64,000 nt of DNA, taken from positions 62,001-126,000 of the forward strand of contig JAVKOQ020000091.1 of NCBI GenBank assembly GCA_031835245.2. Reading direction: 5' to 3'. How positions within the stretch are numbered: the stretch's first letter is position 1; every line of letters starts with the position of its first letter. Below are positions 10,851 to 49,640 of this stretch, piece by piece. The translations under genes and the position numbers were made by a program. Source of the DNA: Balamuthia mandrillaris (lineage: Eukaryota). The notes beneath the pieces are model-generated. The model made no database searches, was not told where the DNA came from, and saw only the letters and a list, made by a program, of their open reading frames with translations.

Positions 10851-11161
10851 AAGAAACGACAAGAAAGAAAGAACGAAACTACAAGAAAGAGAAAACAAGA
10901 AAAAACGCAAAAACAAAAAACTTAAAAAAAGCGTTGATAGACGTACGCAGGTTCGTTTTGGGTGTGAAACTGGGCAGCAAGGCCGAAGAAGCCTTCCATC
11001 TGGCCGCTGCTCAGCGCTTCTCTGAAGAGGGCTTTTCCTTCGGCGGAGGCAAAGTCCACGCATACAGCCGGCAGAGCGCGCCGATAAAAGCTGCGGCTCA
11101 CAGAGGGAACGGGGCGAGGAGGGCCGTTCGCTACGCCTCCGCTCGTGTGGGATGGAAGCAT
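8999..11161 (-). CDS. Phytochelatin synthase (glutathione gamma-glutamylcysteinyltransferase); multi-exon
   Basis: SFYRRALP...[64 protein letters not shown] and [15 protein letters not shown] contain the Cys-His-Asp catalytic triad. The C-terminus is Cys-rich. Confidence 0.96.
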
Positions 11162-11279
11162 CGTCAATCTTTTCTTTTCTTTTCTGGTTTTTGTTTGAAC
11201 CAGCGTTGCATCACGACGACATGGTTGCAAGGAGATCAGGGAAACTGTTGTTTTGAAAAACTGAGAACGGGCATCAATT

Positions 11280-11351
11280 TCCGCTGTGGTGTAGTTGGCA
11301 ACATTGGTGGCTCTCACCCACCCGCCCCGGGTTCGATTCCCGGCAGCGGAA
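11280..11351 (+). tRNA. tRNA-Glu(CTC)
   Basis: TCCGCTG acceptor stem pairs with CAGCGGA; anticodon arm GGTGG-CT CTC AC-CCACC; T-loop GGTTCGATTCC; T-run terminator downstream. Confidence 0.95.
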
Positions 11352-11694
11352 TTTCTTTTTGTTGTCTGAGCTTCTGTTTTTTTTTTTGTTTTTTTGTTTT
11401 GTTTTGTTTGTTTTTTTTTTTTTTTTTTTTTGGCAGAAGGTGTTTCGCAGAGGAGGAGGGAGGGCTGTCGTTGAGCAGTTGCGTGCTGTTTGACAGTTCG
11501 CAACGGAAAGAAAACCAGCGGGTTTTATTTACCATTGGATGTAAGTAGCCGACTCAGATTTAATTGGTACTTCTGTATGACTTATCATTTTTCTTTACAA
11601 AACAATATTATATATTTTGTAATATATTGTACGTTCAGAATTGAAGCAGGACAAACAAAATAACAAAAAAACGCCAGACAAAAAAAATAAGAAA

Positions 11695-11766
11695 TTCCGC
11701 TGCCGGGAATCGAACCCGGGGCGGGTGGGTGAGAGCCACCAATGTTGCCAACTACACCACAGCGGA
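11695..11766 (-). tRNA. tRNA-Glu(CTC), identical inverted copy
   Basis: Exact reverse complement of 11280-11351. Confidence 0.95.
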
Positions 11767-12084
11767 AATTGATGCCCTTTCTCAGTTAGGATTGAGAATT
11801 TTTTTTAACGATGGTTTGCGTTAACTCACTGGAAGTTGCTCTTAACATGGCCGTACCTCCCGGTTGCGGTGTAGCTTACCGTTCTTCTTTGCAACACAAC
11901 AACAACAAGCAAGCAATATGACCAATGGAGCATCTGTACGCTACTGTTGCTGGGCCGATTGACACAGCCTTGAGAAAATAGGAAAAGTGCTGGGGCTGTG
12001 CATCGAGGGCTGCATCAAGCCACCCCTCTTCGGGACGATCTGCAAGAAGTGGAGAACAAAACAACTACGAGCAAAAAAAGAATG

Positions 12085-12155
12085 TGCATCCGCCGGGAGT
12101 TGAACCCGGGCCTCCCGCGTGGCAGGCGGAAATCATGCCCCTAGACTACGGATGC
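12085..12155 (-). tRNA. tRNA-Gly(GCC)
   Basis: Reverse complement GCATCCG...TTCCGC-CT GCC AC-GCGGGA...GGTTCAACTCC...CGGATGCA folds as a cloverleaf. A T-run follows downstream. Confidence 0.93.
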
Positions 12156-31237: not shown

Positions 31238-31567
31238 GCGCCTAAACAACAACAATTTTCGTCCCTCATTTTGTGTCGACAGTGGCTACTTGTCGCGCGT
31301 ACTGGTTCCACTACGCAATTGAAAGACAGAAAAAAAAAACAAAAAGAAAGTGGTGGAAGAGGGCAAAGAAGCATCATCCACTCGCTGTGCTCCCCCAAAA
31401 AGTAGAAAAAAAAAAGCAACATAAACCAGCAGTAGTTTGGAGGTTAACAAAACTTTGGGGAGGGGGTTAGCGGTGGGTTTTCTGTTCCCTTCCTTCCTTC
31501 CTTCCTTTTTCTCACGGTAAAGAAATAACAACAGAAGGAGGACGTCAAACCATCAACACGGAGGGAG

Positions 31568-33709
31568 ATGGGCGCCAAAGTGGTAGCCATTGCCGTTGCA
31601 TGGGGCTTAGCCAGTGCTGTGTCCCTCCCACTGGGAGCCTTTTTGGGCATGTACTTTCACCCAAGGAAGGTGGTCATCTCCACGCTCATGTCTTTTGGTG
31701 GAGGGGCGCTTCTGTTCGCCTTGGCTGTGGAGCTCTTTGCAGAGTCTCTCATCCATCCCAAGCACATGGACAAAGAGGAGGTGGACAAACACTGGTTCGT
31801 GCCTGTCTGTCTCATCCTTGGCGCCATCGTGGGTGGCATCTGTTTCTCCGTGCTGAACCACATGTTGGACAAGTGGGGAGCCTTTCTTCGCAGGCTCTCC
31901 AGCACGCAGCGCCGTCTTCGTTATCCCTTCATGCTGAGAGTGGTCAGCCAGCTGAAGCGCGTGGAAGGCTTCCGTAACGCCTCGTTCTTGGAGCTGCTGC
32001 ACTTGACGGAGCACATGAAGGAACGCACCTTTGCAGCAGGAGAGATCATCTTCAAAGACTCGCAAATGGAGGACGTGCCCATCTTCTTGGTTGTGAAAGG
32101 AGTAGTGGAAGTAAGGAACGGACAGGCGATGGGAGTGGACCAACTAAAGACAACAACGGATGCGGAGAATGAGGAAAGCGAGGAGCATCACACCAGGAGC
32201 GAAGAAGGAGAAGAAAGAAAGAGAAAGGAGAACCTTGTGGAACTGGTGGGGGCTGGTGGCATGTTTGGTAACATCGAATGCATTACAGGCAAATTTGTAC
32301 GTTCCTCGGCTACAGCGGTGGACAAGACTACAGTTATGATGCTGGATGTATTCCACGCGTTACGAGTTCTTCGTAGAGTCCAGGCACGGTATGGAACTGT
32401 TGATGGAAGGGAATTGCATGAAGACCGTCACGTAGGAGGAGAGGGTGTCACGCACGCAGCACTCAGGCCAACGGACAACGATAACTATCTTAAAGAGGAA
32501 GAATTCAGAGAGTACTATGGGGACGATAGAGAAGCATTGACAGATGACGACAGAACGGATGACTCTTCTGCTCTTGACTTTTCTGTTGCTTCCTCTTCGC
32601 CTTCCTCCTCTGAGGATGAGAATGGCTCCGCTGCAAAAAGAGGGAAGAACATATCAAGAAGAAACAAACAGAACAGGAAAGGGATACGTGAAAAAAGAAG
32701 AAAGCTCGGAAAAGCCTTGAAGTCATCTCTCGTCATCCTACCGGACAGTCGTCACGACTATTCCGGCGAAGACGTTAATTCTGAGTTGGAGTTGAGAGAA
32801 CTTCCCTCTTCATTGCAATCCCTTTCAGATAAACAGAAAACAAGGAAAGATGAGGAGGTGGAAGACGAAGGAGAAAAACAATTTTCCAACGAGGATGAGA
32901 CATCAGACGAAGAATGTGAAGAAAGCGAAGACGAAGTAGAAGGAGAAGAAGGACAAAATGAAATAAACAACACAACGAGACTTTCGCCAGTCGGTTCGCA
33001 AGAGGACTTTTTCCCTTTAGGCACTGCTGTGGACCGCACCAGCACCGACCTTCTACGCCAATCTTCGGAGCTCCCTCGAGAAATTAGAAGAAAACACAAG
33101 AAAAAAAGGCTCGCTCCTCCTCACCGCCTTTTCCGAAAATCTCAGCCAAATGCCCCTGACCTTTCTGCTGTCTCCACCGCTGCCTCTGCTCCTCAGCACG
33201 ATGAGGAGGCCCAACTAGAGGGCCACCACGACTCTGACGCTCATGCCGACACCCCGCACAACTCCGTGTTGGGCATATGGTTGGGCATCACCATCGACAG
33301 CATCCCTGAGTCGCTGATCATTGGCACCATGGCTGTGAGCAACTCCATCAGCTGGGCCTTCATCGTGGGCGTCTTTCTCTCCAACCTGCCCGAGGCCATG
33401 GCCTGCGCCCCCGGCATGCGCCTCCAGGGCCTCAGCCGGTGGAAGGTCATGCTGCTCTGGGGCAGCATCTTCATCACCACTGGCATCGGGGCGGGCATCG
33501 GCGCCCTGCTCTTCACCAGCGAGCCGGTGGGGTGGGAGCTGGCCGTGGTGGTGTTCATCGAGGGCCTGGCGGGGGGTGCCATGCTCACCATGATCGCCCA
33601 GACCATGCTGCCCGAGGCCTTTGCCCATGCCAACACGGTGGTGGGCCTGGCCACCTTGTTCGGCTTCCTGGCCGCCACCGCCGTCAAGGTCATGGGAGAT
33701 CGGTTGTAA
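31568..33709 (+). CDS. ZIP/ZupT-family metal transporter with an inserted cyclic-nucleotide-binding domain (intronless, 713 aa)
   Basis: TM1-3 include LMSFGGGALLFALAVELF; the CNB-like segment reads RTFAAGEIIF...IFLVVKGVVEV...GGMFG...R.SATA; TM4-8 include GITIDSIPES, FLSNLPEA and LAGGAMLTMIAQTMLPEAF. Confidence 0.9.
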   Translation: MGAKVVAIAVAWGLASAVSLPLGAFLGMYFHPRKVVISTLMSFGGGALLFALAVELFAESLIHPKHMDKEEVDKHWFVPVCLILGAIVGGICFSVLNHMLDKWGAFLRRLSSTQRRLRYPFMLRVVSQLKRVEGFRNASFLELLHLTEHMKERTFAAGEIIFKDSQMEDVPIFLVVKGVVEVRNGQAMGVDQLKTTTDAENEESEEHHTRSEEGEERKRKENLVELVGAGGMFGNIECITGKFVRSSATAVDKTTVMMLDVFHALRVLRRVQARYGTVDGRELHEDRHVGGEGVTHAALRPTDNDNYLKEEEFREYYGDDREALTDDDRTDDSSALDFSVASSSPSSSEDENGSAAKRGKNISRRNKQNRKGIREKRRKLGKALKSSLVILPDSRHDYSGEDVNSELELRELPSSLQSLSDKQKTRKDEEVEDEGEKQFSNEDETSDEECEESEDEVEGEEGQNEINNTTRLSPVGSQEDFFPLGTAVDRTSTDLLRQSSELPREIRRKHKKKRLAPPHRLFRKSQPNAPDLSAVSTAASAPQHDEEAQLEGHHDSDAHADTPHNSVLGIWLGITIDSIPESLIIGTMAVSNSISWAFIVGVFLSNLPEAMACAPGMRLQGLSRWKVMLLWGSIFITTGIGAGIGALLFTSEPVGWELAVVVFIEGLAGGAMLTMIAQTMLPEAFAHANTVVGLATLFGFLAATAVKVMGDRL

Positions 33710-39343: not shown

Positions 39344-39544
39344 GGTGCAGCAGCTTGCCTGTGGTTGTGTGTGAAAATATAAAATAAAAAAAAAAAGAGC
39401 ACTTTGAGGAGTCTCTCCTCAAGGTCTTGGAGCCGCCTCCAAGGACATCGTCATCGTCGTCTTCCTCCTCATCACTATTGTCAGCATCATCACCAGGGTA
39501 GGCAATCATGTAGGGGCTTTCGTCGATGGGGACAGGATTGCTTT

Positions 39545-40115
39545 CCAAACACATAGGTTAACATCCTTGCTGAAGACAATCGATGTTGTAGCCTTATGGG
39601 AGAGACGATAGGCTTTGGCTCCTGCTTCAGGACCGAGGTAGATCGTTTCTTTGGCCCAAGCAGCAAACTTGTTTCGTTGGGACTTGGGAACATGCACAAA
39701 GGCAGAGCAACCGGATGTACGAAGATGAGCAAGGGAGGGCCAGAGGTAACTGACGGGGAGAGTTGAGGCTGATATGACCGAGACGTCGAGGCCAGAGTTC
39801 TAGGGGCATGGTGGGATGCCGCGAAGTAGAGGAGAGAGGCTATTTGGAGGGGACCGAGCTAAGCGTAGGTGTGACCGTCTTTGACGACGTGATAAGCACG
39901 GACCAGGTGGGTTCCCTTGAGCTTGGGTATGACAGCAACACATCTTTGCTTGCTGTCGTAGATAGTGCACGAGCTCAAGTTGAAGTCGACCTTGACACGG
40001 AGAGTAGGTTTGTAGTAAGGTCTGGAACTAGGAGAACGTTCCTGAGCTTCGTGGAGGTTTTGCCGCCGTCAAGGGCAAGAGGGATGTTGCTCCAGAATCG
40101 AGATACCAGCCGACG
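39545..40115 (-). mobile_element. Degenerate Ty1/copia LTR-retrotransposon pol fragment
   Basis: Across frameshifts on the minus strand: protease GWYLDSGATS, KLRNVLLVPDLTTNLLSVSR, GAG-pre-integrase LELWPRRLGHIS (compare LWHxRLGH), and post-integrase HVPKSQRNKFAAWAKETIYLGPEAGAKAYRL...IVFSKDV. The integrase core and RT are missing. Confidence 0.85.
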
Positions 40116-43164: not shown

Positions 43165-43758
43165 TCACTTTGCAAGTGGAATGTACTCCCAGTCCCAGGT
43201 CTTGGCGCAGCTAACGCAGTCCTTCCAATGCACGTAGGTCACGTTCCGCTGCAACACCTTCTGCCGGGCGGTATTGGCCCCGCAGTAGGGGCAGGGGAAT
43301 GGCGTGTACTTGGCCAGCAGGTCCGTCTGCACCTTCTCCTCAAAGTAGTTGTTCTTGAAGGTGACCTGCCAGGCCGTCTTGCCGTTTCTGGTGAACAGCT
43401 GAGTGGCCGGCAGGTCCTCTCCGTAGCGCCTTTTGCAGAGGGCCTCCCATAGGGGCTCCTCGTGGAATACCAGGTGAAAGCGTTTGCAGGCCCTGGCCGC
43501 CATGGCTAGGTCCCTGGGTGAGGCCAGGTGCTTGAAGATATGGAGGAGCACCTCGTCGGGGATAAATAAAAAGGGTTTCTCAGCGAGGGTGGAGCGCTCG
43601 CGTTCCGCTTGTTCTTGTTGGAGGCGCTGTAGCTCCGCCGCTTCTCTTTTCTTCTCTACCCATTCTTGCATCAGCTCTCTGTGCTTAAGGACTCGTTCTC
43701 GCAGCTTGACTCGCTTTGTGTGTTGTTGTTGTTCTTGTTAAGGACGTCGAAGAAGATG

Positions 43759-46509: not shown

Positions 46510-46840
46510 ATGGACTCTGCCGACGGAGCGAGTACTTCATCCTCTTCCTCTTTGTCTTCCGGCGATCTTGTGCGGATCTCCAAAAAACTGAGCTATGTGC
46601 TTCGTCACGGGTTGCCGATGATGGAAGCGCGAGGGGCAAAGGTCTATGCGGACGGGTGGCTCTGCTTGGACGAACTTTGGAGGCACTGCCCCGCGCCGCT
46701 CTTCAAGAAGGTCACGCAGGAGCAGCTGCTTTGTTGTGTGGCCAGCTCCAAGTCGACCAGAGATGAGCAACAGCGTTTTCAAGTGGAGGAATTTGATGGT
46801 TTGTTTACTTCCTTGTCGTTTCTTGTCGTTTCTTGTCGTT

Positions 46841-46880
<40 letters not shown>

Positions 46881-48683
46881 GTCGTTTCTTTCCTCTCCCC
46901 TCCGCTCTCTTTTCTCCTCTAACAATGTTGTGGTTGATAGATGGAAGGATCTTCATAAGAGCCACGTATGGTCACTCTTTTCCTTTGGACAACAGACCGC
47001 CGTTGTCCGCTTGCGGCGCACAACCGTTGGAACAGTTTGGGGTGGGTGCGCAAGGAACCGCGGCCGTTGTGCCTTCCCTCACTCAACAGTGTCTCTCTTT
47101 CATCACTGCCAACATTAAACGGTTTGAAGCGCTAGGAGGTAAAACCTTCATCTTCTTCTTGTTGTTGTTCTTGTTGTTCTTCTTGTTCTTCTTGTTCTTC
47201 TTCTTCTTCTCTTCTTCTTGTTCTTGTGGTTCCTTTATGATTAACAAGCGAACAAACAAAGAATGTTTGGATGATTCGCTGCTCTGCCGGTTGTTAGTGT
47301 TGTTAAAGAAAGAGAACAACACCGCTAGAGCGGTCATGAACATTCTATTGGGGAGCCAAGTGCAAACGCTTCACCTCGAGAAAACATTTGTCAGCGACGC
47401 CACGTTTCGTGCTGTTGGTAACTGCAAGCACTATCTTCTCCGTTTCTCTCTCTCTCTCTCTCTCTCATCTATTCTCCTCTCGTTTTATTTTCTGTCTTCT
47501 TCTATTATGTTTTCTTCTTTGTGCTGTTGAAGCTCATAACGCGGACAAATAACAGCCAACAAATGTCCATCGTTGTTACGGCTCAACCTCAAAGGCTGCT
47601 TCTCTGTTTGTAACGATCAAAGCATGATGTATCTGCTGAAGCGGTGTCATCACCTCCAGGTGATAAACTTGGGTATGTCTCGCTTCTCTCTCTATCTAGC
47701 ATCTCGTTGCTTATTCTATTTTGCTGTAAAAAACAAGCGAGATGTAAATACCTTACGGACAAAGCATTAGAGGCAATAGCAAAGAGCGCCTGTTCCAAAA
47801 GTTTAGAAACGTTGGACATTTCTGGACTCCCTCTTATTACTGATAAAGGCATTGCTCATTTACGACGCCTCTCTGCCCTTCGTTCTCTCACCGTACTCAG
47901 TTTCTTTTTCTTCTCTCTTTTATTCTCTTCTTAACTTCTTTCTTACAAGCCCATTTCTTTCTTTACAAAGGTTTTGGGATGTCCAAACGTTTCTCTTTCT
48001 GCCTTGACTCAACTCGAAGAATCAATCAACTCCAATCGCGACTCTTCCTCGTCTTCTTTCTCTTCTTCTCCTCTCTTGAAAGTGGAGAGCGACCATTTTG
48101 AGCCGATCTTTATCTGTGGCCCTGACGACGTTTCCTACGGCCCGCTCTCGCACAATGCGCTCTTTGCATTCTCCCTCGAAGGCGTCAGCTATCCTTCCCT
48201 CATTCATTACTATCAATGCCAAAAGTTTGTGGGCAGCGACGACGAGCATTCAGAGGCCATTCGGAACGCGGAGACGGCCTCCAAGGCGTTTCGCATGGGG
48301 CAGAGCAGGGACAAGACCATGCGAGCTGACTGGGAGAAGGTCAAGTATGATGTTATGTGGCAAGGCATGAACGCCAAGTTTTCTCAGGTTCGTCGTTGTT
48401 TTTGTTCAGGTGTTTGTTTGTTTTTTTTTCTTTTTGTTAACTCACCTGTGGAACTAGAATCCTCAACTGATAAAACTGCTGTTGGGCACCGGAGACCGTC
48501 TCATCGTGGAACGACGAAGGTTTGACTCTGTCTCCTTCTCTTGTCGCTCTTTGTGTTCTTAGTTATTCAAACCCCCCAAACAGGAACACGTACTGGGGAG
48601 ACGGGTTGGATGGCAAAGGGCGCAACAAAAGCGGCAAACTGTTGATGCAACTCCGAAAGAGTCTTGCTGCCCAACAAACATGA
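46510..48683 (+). CDS. Fusion protein: Tpt1/KptA RNA-binding lobe + cysteine-containing LRRs + NADAR (YbiA) domain; 8 exons
   Basis: ISKKLSYVLRHG..DGW...QRF...IRATYGHS; LRRs LLRLNLKGC, LQVINLARCKYLTDKALEAI and LETLDISGLPLITDKGI; NADAR HYYQCQKF...RADWEKVKYDVM...AKFSQNPQLIKLLLGTG..IVE...YWGDGLDGKGRNKSGKLLMQLR. The frame is continuous across GT-AG introns. Confidence 0.85.
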
Positions 48684-48794
48684 GGAAAAAAAAATCCATC
48701 GCTATAATATTCATGTCGTCACGATCAAATGTACTCAAGATGTGCTCTAATTCTGCAGCAAATACAATCAAAAAAAAATAAAAGAAAGAAAAAA

Positions 48795-49640
48795 ATGAAA
48801 GAAAAGCTTTCTTCTCTTTCTTCTCCCTTTCGCCACGTTTGTGCACCTTCTTCCTCCTCCTCCTCCTCCACTTCTTGGCACTTCCTCTTCGCTTCCCTTC
48901 GGCCAAAGCATCGAATACATCAACACACTCTCCGTTTGGGCACCCACAAATCCTTTTGCACCGCGTCCAGCCACGATGCACTATTGTCGGAGCAAGCGAG
49001 GATGGTGCGACACAAGCCGTTGCGGCGGTTGTCGACCGGAACGGTCCGACCCTTGGTGGTGGCCTGCATGCCCCTCAAAAGCAACGCCAACGTGAGCAGC
49101 ATCGCCCGAGTGGCCTCCAATTGCGCCGTGCAGCACCTGGTCTGCTGCGGGCAGGCTAGACTGTTGGGACCCATTGTTCGCCAGGCCAGGCTTCAACAGC
49201 AGCCGGAAGAAGAACAAAAACGAAAGAAAGGAAAGAAGAAAGGGCCACGAGCAGAAGAAGAAGAAGCAGAAGAAGCAGAAGAAGCGCAAGCAGAAGCGGA
49301 AGCAAGAGAAGAGGAGAGTAACGAAAAGCGAGCCGGTGTCGACAATAATTGGTTCATCGTGAAAAATGGTTTAAAGCACACCCTGTTGGACTACAAGCGC
49401 CAAGGCTACAAGCTGATAGGCTTGGAGCAAACGAACAACTCCCAGGACATTCATGGTTTCGCCTTTCCTCGCAAGATGGTGTTGGTGGTTGGCAACGAGG
49501 CCTCTGGGATTTCGGAGGAGATCCTGGCGATGATGGACGCGGTGGTGGAGATCCCGGTTTGGGGCCTTCCCTATAGCTACAACGTGGCTACGTCCACTGC
49601 CATGGCTCTCTACGAGTACTGCCGTCAGCATCCCTCATGA
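48795..49640 (+). CDS. SpoU/TrmH-family RNA 2'-O-methyltransferase (intronless, probably mitochondrial)
   Basis: SPOUT motifs KSNANVSSIARVA, LVVGNEASGIS and VEIPVWGLPYSYNVATSTAMALYE. Confidence 0.9.
   Translation: MKEKLSSLSSPFRHVCAPSSSSSSSTSWHFLFASLRPKHRIHQHTLRLGTHKSFCTASSHDALLSEQARMVRHKPLRRLSTGTVRPLVVACMPLKSNANVSSIARVASNCAVQHLVCCGQARLLGPIVRQARLQQQPEEEQKRKKGKKKGPRAEEEEAEEAEEAQAEAEAREEESNEKRAGVDNNWFIVKNGLKHTLLDYKRQGYKLIGLEQTNNSQDIHGFAFPRKMVLVVGNEASGISEEILAMMDAVVEIPVWGLPYSYNVATSTAMALYEYCRQHPS

What the first reader, a model, noticed from the sequence alone, without database searches (positions are those of the whole stretch)
46510..48683. Tpt1 RNA-lobe + LRR + NADAR fusion: a candidate reader of RNA ends or nucleic-acid ADP-ribosylation
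Seen: eight exons splice in frame (about 46510-46798, 46941-47138, 47262-47417, 47556-47671, 47738-47892, 47971-48387, 48458-48519, 48584-48683). They encode (1) ISKKLSYVLRHG...DGW...QQRF...IRATYGHS, (2) about five cysteine-containing LRRs and (3) a full NADAR domain. Known: Tpt1/KptA has two lobes. The N-terminal RNA lobe carries RH, the KxRF Arg and the IRAxQGHS linker; the C-terminal ART-like NAD lobe carries HGT and RxxxH. Tpt1 removes RNA 2'-phosphate via an ADP-ribosyl intermediate and can ADP-ribose-cap 5'-phosphates. NADAR proteins hydrolyse N-glycosidic bonds, including guanine-ADP-ribose (antitoxin of DarT1) and damaged riboflavin intermediates (YbiA). Here the NAD lobe is missing and an ADP-ribose-eraser fold sits beyond an LRR spacer. 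Inference: two modules from nucleic-acid ADP-ribosylation chemistry are joined through a protein-interaction scaffold. It could sense phosphorylated or ADP-ribosylated RNA in RNA repair or anti-parasite defence. I do not know of a described protein with this architecture.
Basis: partly seen in the sequence, partly recalled or inferred. Interest (0 to 1): 0.88.

Follow-up and report, generated by a model that had tools for sequence, protein, structure and literature searches.

The report
Half an RNA-repair enzyme turned adaptor
A real, spliced amoeba gene joins the RNA-gripping half of the RNA-repair enzyme Tpt1 to leucine-rich repeats and a worn ADP-ribose-removing domain; it likely reads phosphate-marked RNA rather than repairing it, and may pass bound partners to a ubiquitin ligase.

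Summary
The gene is real. Eight exons give a 497-aa ORF once exon 4 ends at 47672. RNA shows five introns as joints and a sixth by a loose end; the other is in frame either way. NCBI holds the same model from Balamuthia mandrillaris. The order is Tpt1 RNA lobe, five LRRs, YbiA-type NADAR, with no NAD lobe.

(1) ESM Atlas matches the RNA lobe plus LRR part (0.95) to a 52-member, mainly mollusc cluster that lists PTS_2-RNA and LRR but no NADAR. The core may be a wider eukaryotic family, with NADAR added here; I could not fetch its sequences. (2) A BC-box consensus sits just before LRRs that resemble FBXL2, Rad7 and AMN1, suggesting a cullin-ligase substrate receptor (motif only). (3) The NADAR keeps its main catalytic Glu and Lys but differs at 6 of 28 near-invariant positions, and tested NADARs do not remove phosphate-linked ADP-ribose caps.

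Best reading: a non-catalytic reader of 2'- or 5'-phosphate RNA, likely coupled to ubiquitination (0.4). I found no description of this architecture in ten literature searches. No function was tested.

The parts
46510..46798 (+). Exon 1: start codon, Ser-rich leader, most of the Tpt1 RNA lobe (S24, K25, Y29, R32, H33, Q87, R89)
   Evidence: RNA depth
46941..47138 (+). Exon 2: end of the RNA lobe (R103, Y106, G107, H108, S109), linker, BC-box-like helix
   Evidence: intron 1 joint
47075..47104 (+). BC-box consensus match S-L-x3-C-x3-I, residues 142-151 (Elongin C binding inferred, untested)
47262..47417 (+). Exon 3: cullin-box-like hydrophobic pattern at residues 165-173 without the consensus Pro, two helices, first LRR
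47556..47672 (+). Exon 4 (end corrected by one base): LRRs 2-3
   Evidence: joints
47738..47892 (+). Exon 5: LRRs 3-5
47971..48387 (+). Exon 6: end of LRR, Ser-rich linker, first two thirds of the YbiA-type NADAR (H366, N367, I383, K390, Q416, W426, K430)
48458..48519 (+). Exon 7: NADAR last strand with the family-defining Glu (E462)
   Evidence: intron 6 joint
48584..48683 (+). Exon 8: NADAR C-terminus (N466, W469) and stop codon
   Evidence: loose end

Best explanation
The gene encodes a 497-aa protein with a Tpt1 RNA lobe, no NAD lobe, five LRRs and an altered NADAR domain; it likely binds phosphate-marked RNA without repairing it and would act as a substrate receptor that brings an Elongin C-cullin ubiquitin ligase to that RNA's protein partners. 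Shown: the gene, its domain order, the residues kept and lost, and the missing NAD lobe. Inferred step 1 (about 0.65): the RNA lobe grips an internal 2'-phosphate junction or a 5'-phosphate, as the lobe does in solved Tpt1 complexes. Inferred step 2 (about 0.5): the helix at 142-151 docks Elongin C while the LRRs hold a protein substrate, as in Rad7 or ZYG11B. Inferred step 3 (about 0.55): the NADAR is a lineage-specific addition that binds ADP-ribose with reduced or shifted hydrolase activity, and so would bias the protein towards ADP-ribosylated RNA.
For: RNA lobe: model pLDDT about 95; best structural matches are Tpt1 (mouse Z 11.5, rmsd 2.9, 89 aligned). It keeps the equivalents of the Ser, Lys, Tyr, Arg, His, Arg and Tyr that hold the 2'-phosphate junction in solved Tpt1s. 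The NAD lobe is absent. LRR part: nearest solved relatives are FBXL2, FBXL17 and SKP2 by sequence, and FBXL2 (Z 19.4), FBXL17 (16.4) and Rad7 of the Rad7-Elc1 complex (16.0, rmsd 3.3, 168 aligned) by fold. The BC-box consensus from PMC3355856 is matched once in strict form, in the linker just before the LRRs; shuffles place such a match there 1.5% of the time. Atlas: residues 15-330 score 0.95 with 203 of 256 features against a 52-member eukaryote cluster (PTS_2-RNA 94%, LRR families 40% and 21%), and an AMN1-homolog cluster ranks third at 0.86. NADAR: differs at 6 of 28 columns that are at least 90% conserved in 144 homologues, of which 98 differ at none and only 1 at six; it sits on a long branch.
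Against: The BC-box is a low-information motif that I picked by eye. The Cul2-box Pro is missing. An 82-aa stretch around it found no BC-box protein among solved structures at E up to 10. The fold match rests on a single-sequence model with mean pLDDT 40.6. The Atlas hit gives no alignment and no sequences, LRR families cover under half of its members, and its calibration was not measured for protein parts; four sequence searches recovered no second protein with this architecture. In Tpt1 the phosphate is also held by NAD-lobe arginines, so a lone lobe may bind weakly; the ancillary Lys is Gln here, against Lys in 26 of 26 bacterial lobes. [quoted passage not shown]
Confidence: 0.4

Rival explanations
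1. An RNA-targeted ADP-ribosylhydrolase: the RNA lobe tethers an active NADAR to RNA, where it removes base-linked ADP-ribose put on by bacterial or endogenous toxins; the LRRs only position it.
For: E462 and K390, equivalents of the essential catalytic Glu and phosphate-binding Lys, are kept, as are W426 and W469. The other Glu mainly positions ribose. The domain passes the Pfam and TIGR02464 cut-offs. YbiA-type NADARs reverse guanosine and cytidine ADP-ribose on RNA, and pierisin-like enzymes are reported in Amoebozoa.
Against: Ile replaces a Glu found in 144 of 144 homologues, His an Asn found in 144 of 144, Asn an Asp found in 139 of 144, and Gln an Arg found in 121 of 144. E88Q was inactive and E88 substitutions failed to rescue in vivo. 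The wider RNA-lobe plus LRR cluster lists no NADAR, so hydrolysis cannot be the core job of the family.
Confidence: 0.22
2. A reader-scaffold without ubiquitin: the RNA lobe and NADAR sense marks and the LRRs recruit repair or signalling partners; the BC-box match is chance.
For: The same RNA-lobe and NADAR evidence as above. Lone RNA lobes occur in proteins without LRRs (L002 ORF, Pfam 3-92 of 177). No BC-box protein was hit by sequence.
Against: The motif lies directly before LRRs whose nearest relatives are cullin substrate receptors, the arrangement described for ZYG11B.
Confidence: 0.2
3. A small-molecule sensor: the lone lobe binds a 2'-phosphate nucleotide such as NADP(H), or ADP-ribose phosphate, rather than RNA, and the protein couples that metabolite to protein turnover.
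For: Solved Tpt1s bind 2',5'-ADP, NADP+, 5'-AMP and the pAp end of CoA in the RNA lobe. YbiA-type NADARs also act on small riboflavin intermediates.
Against: The helix-1 Tyr that contacts a flanking nucleotide is kept. No metabolic gene context was seen.
Confidence: 0.13
4. Two or three adjacent genes, or a decaying chance fusion with no joint function.
For: No single read spans the gene and intron 2 has no listed joint. Two of four NCBI models retain intron 6 or 7 and truncate the NADAR.
Against: Joints link exons 1-2 and 3-7, a loose end links 7-8, and intron 2 is in frame without a stop. A second allele differs at 17 residues plus one indel, none at the motif residues, and keeps the full ORF.
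Confidence: 0.05

Closest known systems
Tpt1/KptA/TRPT1 RNA 2'-phosphotransferase (PF01885; PDB 6E3A, 7YW2, 8TG5)
   Same: Winged-helix RNA lobe with the Ser, Lys, Arg-His, Arg and Tyr contacts to the 2'-phosphate junction.
   Different: No NAD lobe, so no HGT motif and no fourth tetrad Arg; the ancillary Lys is Gln. It cannot be a self-contained phosphotransferase.
E. coli YbiA and YbiA-family NADARs (PF08719, TIGR02464; PDB 2B3W, 8BAU)
   Same: Full domain, E 3.7e-28 to YbiA; last-strand Glu, Lys and both Trp kept.
   Different: E43, R79, D130 equivalents and the SNF Asn and Phe are changed; fused behind LRRs; no toxin gene seen nearby.
BC-box/VHL-box plus LRR cullin substrate receptors (Rad7-Elc1 5ZB2, ZYG11B, LRR-1) and AMN1 homologues
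   Same: BC-box consensus directly before a cysteine-containing LRR solenoid; fold match to Rad7 Z 16.0; AMN1 cluster 0.86.
   Different: Cul2-box Pro missing; no significant sequence match over the box; flanked by nucleic-acid and ADP-ribose modules; binding untested.
F-box/LRR receptors FBXL2, FBXL17, SKP2
   Same: Nearest LRR type by sequence and fold.
   Different: No F-box by Pfam at E up to 1; only five repeats.
ESM Atlas cluster auto-named '2'-phosphotransferase' (52 members, 287 aa, commonest Mollusca)
   Same: PTS_2-RNA 94% with LRR families on 40% and 21% of members; score 0.95 to residues 15-330.
   Different: No NADAR listed.

Membership tests
Tpt1/KptA phosphotransferase | N-terminal winged-helix RNA lobe | tested here: met
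   Pfam E 5.6e-11; model pLDDT about 95; Z 11.5 to mouse TRPT1
Tpt1/KptA phosphotransferase | First three residues of the Arg-His-Arg-Arg tetrad | tested here: met
   R32, H33, R89; each 26 of 26 in bacterial lobes
Tpt1/KptA phosphotransferase | C-terminal NAD lobe with HGT motif and fourth Arg | tested here: not met
   NAD-lobe profile from 17 sequences: no hit in the protein, best window hit E 1.8; both copies in control P0008 hit
Tpt1/KptA phosphotransferase | NAD-dependent 2'-phosphate transfer | not testable with these tools
   needs an assay
YbiA-family NADAR | Profile match above curated cut-off | tested here: met
   PF08719 99 bits against 35.1; TIGR02464 96.6 against 73.7
YbiA-family NADAR | Catalytic Glu in the last strand (E125 type) and phosphate-binding Lys (K50 type) | tested here: met
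   E462 and K390, mapped through; each 144 of 144 in homologues
YbiA-family NADAR | Second ribose-binding Glu (E43/E88 type) and phosphate contacts R79 and D130 | tested here: not met
   I383, Q416, N466; same residues in the second allele
YbiA-family NADAR | N-glycosidase or ADP-ribosylhydrolase activity | not testable with these tools
   needs an assay
DarTG1 antitoxin (BC4488 NADAR) | Asp in the last strand and an adjacent DarT1 toxin gene | tested here: not met
   Glu at that position; no ART family among 149 of 185 selected window ORFs scanned
BC-box/VHL-box cullin substrate receptor | BC-box consensus (S/T/P)LxxxCxxx-hydrophobic | tested here: met
   residues 142-151; consensus; 1.5% of shuffles match in that linker, 8.8% anywhere
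BC-box/VHL-box cullin substrate receptor | Cul2 box, hydrophobic-Pro-x2-hydrophobic-x3-hydrophobic, 8-23 residues downstream | tested here: not met
   hydrophobic spacing present at 165-173 but Asp stands for Pro
BC-box/VHL-box cullin substrate receptor | Homology to a solved BC-box receptor over the box itself | tested here: inconclusive
   Rad7 Z 16.0 from model residue 156; ZYG11B Z 10.8, rmsd 8.9, range starting at its VHL box
BC-box/VHL-box cullin substrate receptor | Binds Elongin C and a cullin | not testable with these tools
F-box/LRR (SCF) receptor | F-box domain | tested here: not met
   none in Pfam at E up to 1
AMN1 homologues | Family-level similarity of the box plus LRR region | tested here: inconclusive
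   Atlas 0.86 with 137 of 256 features, under the 0.9 lead threshold

The most novel reading that the evidence does not exclude
An undescribed eukaryotic family, from amoebae to molluscs, has turned the RNA lobe of Tpt1 into the sensing module of an Elongin C-cullin ubiquitin ligase: a ligase steered by a chemical mark on RNA (2'-phosphate junction, 5'-phosphate, or the RNA-phospho-ADP-ribose intermediate). The Balamuthia member adds a reshaped NADAR pocket that reads the ADP-ribose half of that mark.
Probability: 0.3. Interest if true: 0.88.

Novelty: new variant of a known kind. Interest (0 to 1): 0.64.

Why it matters
Papers seen here call the role of phosphate-end RNA ADP-ribosylation unclear (PMC11833690), and none of the listings I saw describes a protein that only reads a 2'-phosphate mark. 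A lone RNA lobe that keeps its phosphate pocket is a candidate reader. If it is wired to a cullin ligase, it links RNA damage or repair marks to protein destruction, and the question is testable with purified protein. The lobe could also serve as a probe for 2'-phosphate RNA. If only the NADAR fusion is lineage-specific, the Balamuthia gene is the pointer to the wider family rather than the main case.

Tried and rejected
No genome is held, so a separate full-length Tpt1 in this organism could not be sought. No RNA holder was listed on record by the run finder; RNA rows came by species label. Same-architecture searches: exon 6 'longer', 1 hit of 628 candidates; P0001 'near', 11 of 7998, none but itself with two of the three domains; RNA-lobe profile 'longer', 1 of 6808; exon 1 against 1.84 billion representatives, 5 hits, of which P0006 and P0007 are repeat artefacts. 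That last search found only one ordinary Tpt1, so its reach is short. Viral contigs gave no RNA-lobe relative. BC-box by sequence against solved structures: nothing relevant. Skp1/Elongin C family in 24 viral records of 50 asked: 0, with no control ringing. Mixed alignments A1, A5 and A6 misaligned and were not used. The NADAR tree stayed at the quick method and does not place the domain or name a donor. Earlier scan findings: none. Two comparative-genomics papers on KptA and NADAR fusions may already list this architecture (both recalled): one was asked for and is not held, the other was not requested. The Rad7-Elc1 paper is not held. No supplements were read. Rejected: DarTG-like toxin-antitoxin pair, F-box protein, intact Tpt1.

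Full report
Observation. The region is a spliced eukaryotic gene on the + strand. Ending exon 4 at 47672 gives 497 codons plus stop with seven GT..AG introns. NCBI holds a 498-aa allele, P0001, labelled 'NADAR domain-containing protein [Balamuthia mandrillaris]', and three further models in the same cluster. Two of these retain intron 6 or 7 and one uses an upstream acceptor in intron 5. P0001 differs from the window protein at 17 residues plus one indel, none at the motif residues discussed below.

RNA. Four of five listed runs were laid. Joints are listed for intron 1 (X1 contig, and 2 X4 reads), intron 3 (3 X3 reads), intron 4 (X1, 1 X3 read), intron 5 (X1, giving the 78-nt form) and intron 6 (X1, 5 X3 reads, 1 X4 read). 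A loose end in X1 continues into exon 8. X1 is only guessed to be RNA, but its contigs skip introns; X3 and X4 are recorded RNA-seq, of which about 3 and 5 in 100 were read. Intron 2 has no listed joint; it is in frame and stop-free. Nothing spans the whole gene. Neighbours are unrelated genes such as an F-box protein, a SpoU methylase and gelsolin (149 of 185 selected ORFs scanned).

RNA lobe. Pfam PTS_2-RNA covers positions 4-84 of 177. A model built on 30 aligned lobes has pLDDT about 95 over this part, and its best matches are Tpt1 structures. Passages of PMC6333775 and PMC12170183 name the lobe residues that hold the 2'-phosphate junction. The window protein keeps S24, K25, Y29, R32, H33, R89 and Y106. 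The Y106 equivalence is inferred from the Gln78/Tyr80 correspondence and the profile spacing. The ancillary Lys is Q87, against Lys in 26 of 26 bacterial lobes. A NAD-lobe profile (16 of 26 bacterial loci plus one fungal copy; 10 were dropped by a pattern filter) finds nothing in the gene or window. So the protein cannot be a self-contained phosphotransferase, and two arginines that help hold the phosphate are gone. Other lone lobes exist: the 961-aa ORF of L002 and P0005, the closest relative, an unnamed 180-aa product that may be cut short.

Middle region. Five LRRs run from about residue 196 to 322. Their nearest solved relatives are FBXL2, FBXL17 and SKP2. By fold, on a weak single-sequence model (mean pLDDT 40.6), the top three are FBXL2, FBXL17 and Rad7. 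There is no F-box. Residues 142-151 match the BC-box consensus quoted in PMC3355856 (passages). This is the only strict match in the protein; 1.5% of 20,000 shuffles put one in that linker and 8.8% anywhere. I chose the motif by eye, so these figures flatter it. The downstream cullin-box pattern lacks its Pro, and no BC-box protein was hit by sequence. ZYG11B has the same order, BC-box then LRR (PMC13201589, passages), and aligns weakly from its VHL box (Z 10.8, rmsd 8.9).

Wider family. ESM Atlas ranks first a 52-member eukaryote cluster, commonest Mollusca, 287 aa, with PTS_2-RNA on 94% and LRR families on 40% and 21% of members. The score is 0.86 for the whole protein and 0.95 with 203 of 256 features for residues 15-330. 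AMN1 homologues come second and third. NADAR is not listed for that cluster. This is a lead without alignment, and four sequence searches did not recover such proteins. I infer that RNA lobe plus LRR is the older unit and NADAR a later addition.

NADAR. The domain is complete and YbiA-like. I mapped it to the Phytophthora structure through P0011 and the residue list in PMC11543638 (section 12 read in full). Kept: K50, W89, a basic residue at R93, E125, W133. Changed: E43 to Ile, R79 to Gln, D130 to Asn. From 160 bacterial and viral loci, 151 had a near-full domain and 144 were unique. In these the Glu is 144 of 144, the SNF Asn 144 of 144 (His here), the Asp 139 of 144 and the Arg 121 of 144. 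The retrieval patterns covered the Glu, Lys and first Trp, so those counts are partly by design, although Ile was allowed at the Glu. The query departs at 6 of 28 near-invariant columns, matched by 1 of 144 homologues. [quoted passage not shown] PMC11833690 (abstract and passages) reports NADARs inactive on phosphate-end ADP-ribose, which undercuts the idea that this domain erases Tpt1-type caps. The quick tree gives a long branch among bacterial YbiA-like rows without support for a donor.

Mechanism. I commit to a non-catalytic reader of phosphate-marked RNA that would act as an Elongin C-cullin substrate receptor, with the NADAR as an added ADP-ribose-binding or weakly active module (0.4). 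The gene, domain order and residue changes are shown; RNA binding, ligase assembly and NADAR behaviour are inferred. Rivals are an RNA-tethered hydrolase (0.22), a ubiquitin-free scaffold (0.2), a nucleotide sensor (0.13) and a non-functional or split gene (0.05).

Literature. Ten searches were seen as listings; none showed this architecture. Passages were read from PMC9503650, PMC11125620 (also the first of six parts), PMC11543638, PMC3355856, PMC6333775, PMC12945103, PMC11833690, PMC12678800, PMC13201589, PMC10415124, PMC9485057 and PMC12170183. PMC9503650 already links NADAR to RNA-repair systems and KptA, so the pairing of themes is not new. Older comparative papers and all supplements were not seen and may list the fusion.

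Verdict. A real gene with an architecture I could not find described, built from known parts. New variant of a known kind; interest 0.64. The main value is the lead to a possible RNA-lobe plus BC-box-LRR family.

Noticed in passing
window 31529-33706 (+): A 726-aa open frame carries a cyclic-nucleotide-binding domain (E 1e-6) ahead of a ZIP zinc-transporter domain (E 1e-16), an unusual pairing.
   Followed up: partly
L002 176-3058 (+): A 961-aa metagenome ORF has a lone Tpt1 RNA lobe (Pfam 3-92 of 177) followed by a long Gln-rich region, with no NAD lobe.
   Followed up: partly
P0005 (unnamed, 180 aa): Closest relative of the RNA lobe, with an acidic insertion before the last strand and the ancillary Lys kept; its downstream exons, if any, could not be fetched.
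   Followed up: partly
P0008 (Glomus cerebriforme, 618 aa): Two tandem Tpt1 copies in one protein; the first lacks the HGT His and the GHS motif.
   Followed up: no
window 47893-48583: NCBI variants retain intron 6 or 7, or use an upstream acceptor in intron 5; the first two would truncate the NADAR. The RNA laid here supports the fully spliced form.
   Followed up: partly
window 39509-39799 (-): Retroviral-polymerase SH3-like fragment (E 1e-16), probably a retrotransposon remnant.
   Followed up: no
window 48708-49637 (+): The next gene is a SpoU-family RNA methylase, starting within about 110 bases of the stop codon; no link shown.
   Followed up: no
window 11279-12155: Two tRNA-Glu genes on opposite strands and a tRNA-Gly, next to or within a stretch with a phytochelatin synthase match at 10925-11524.
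   Followed up: no
window 43168-43737 (-): F-box-like protein about 2.8 kb upstream on the opposite strand.
   Followed up: no
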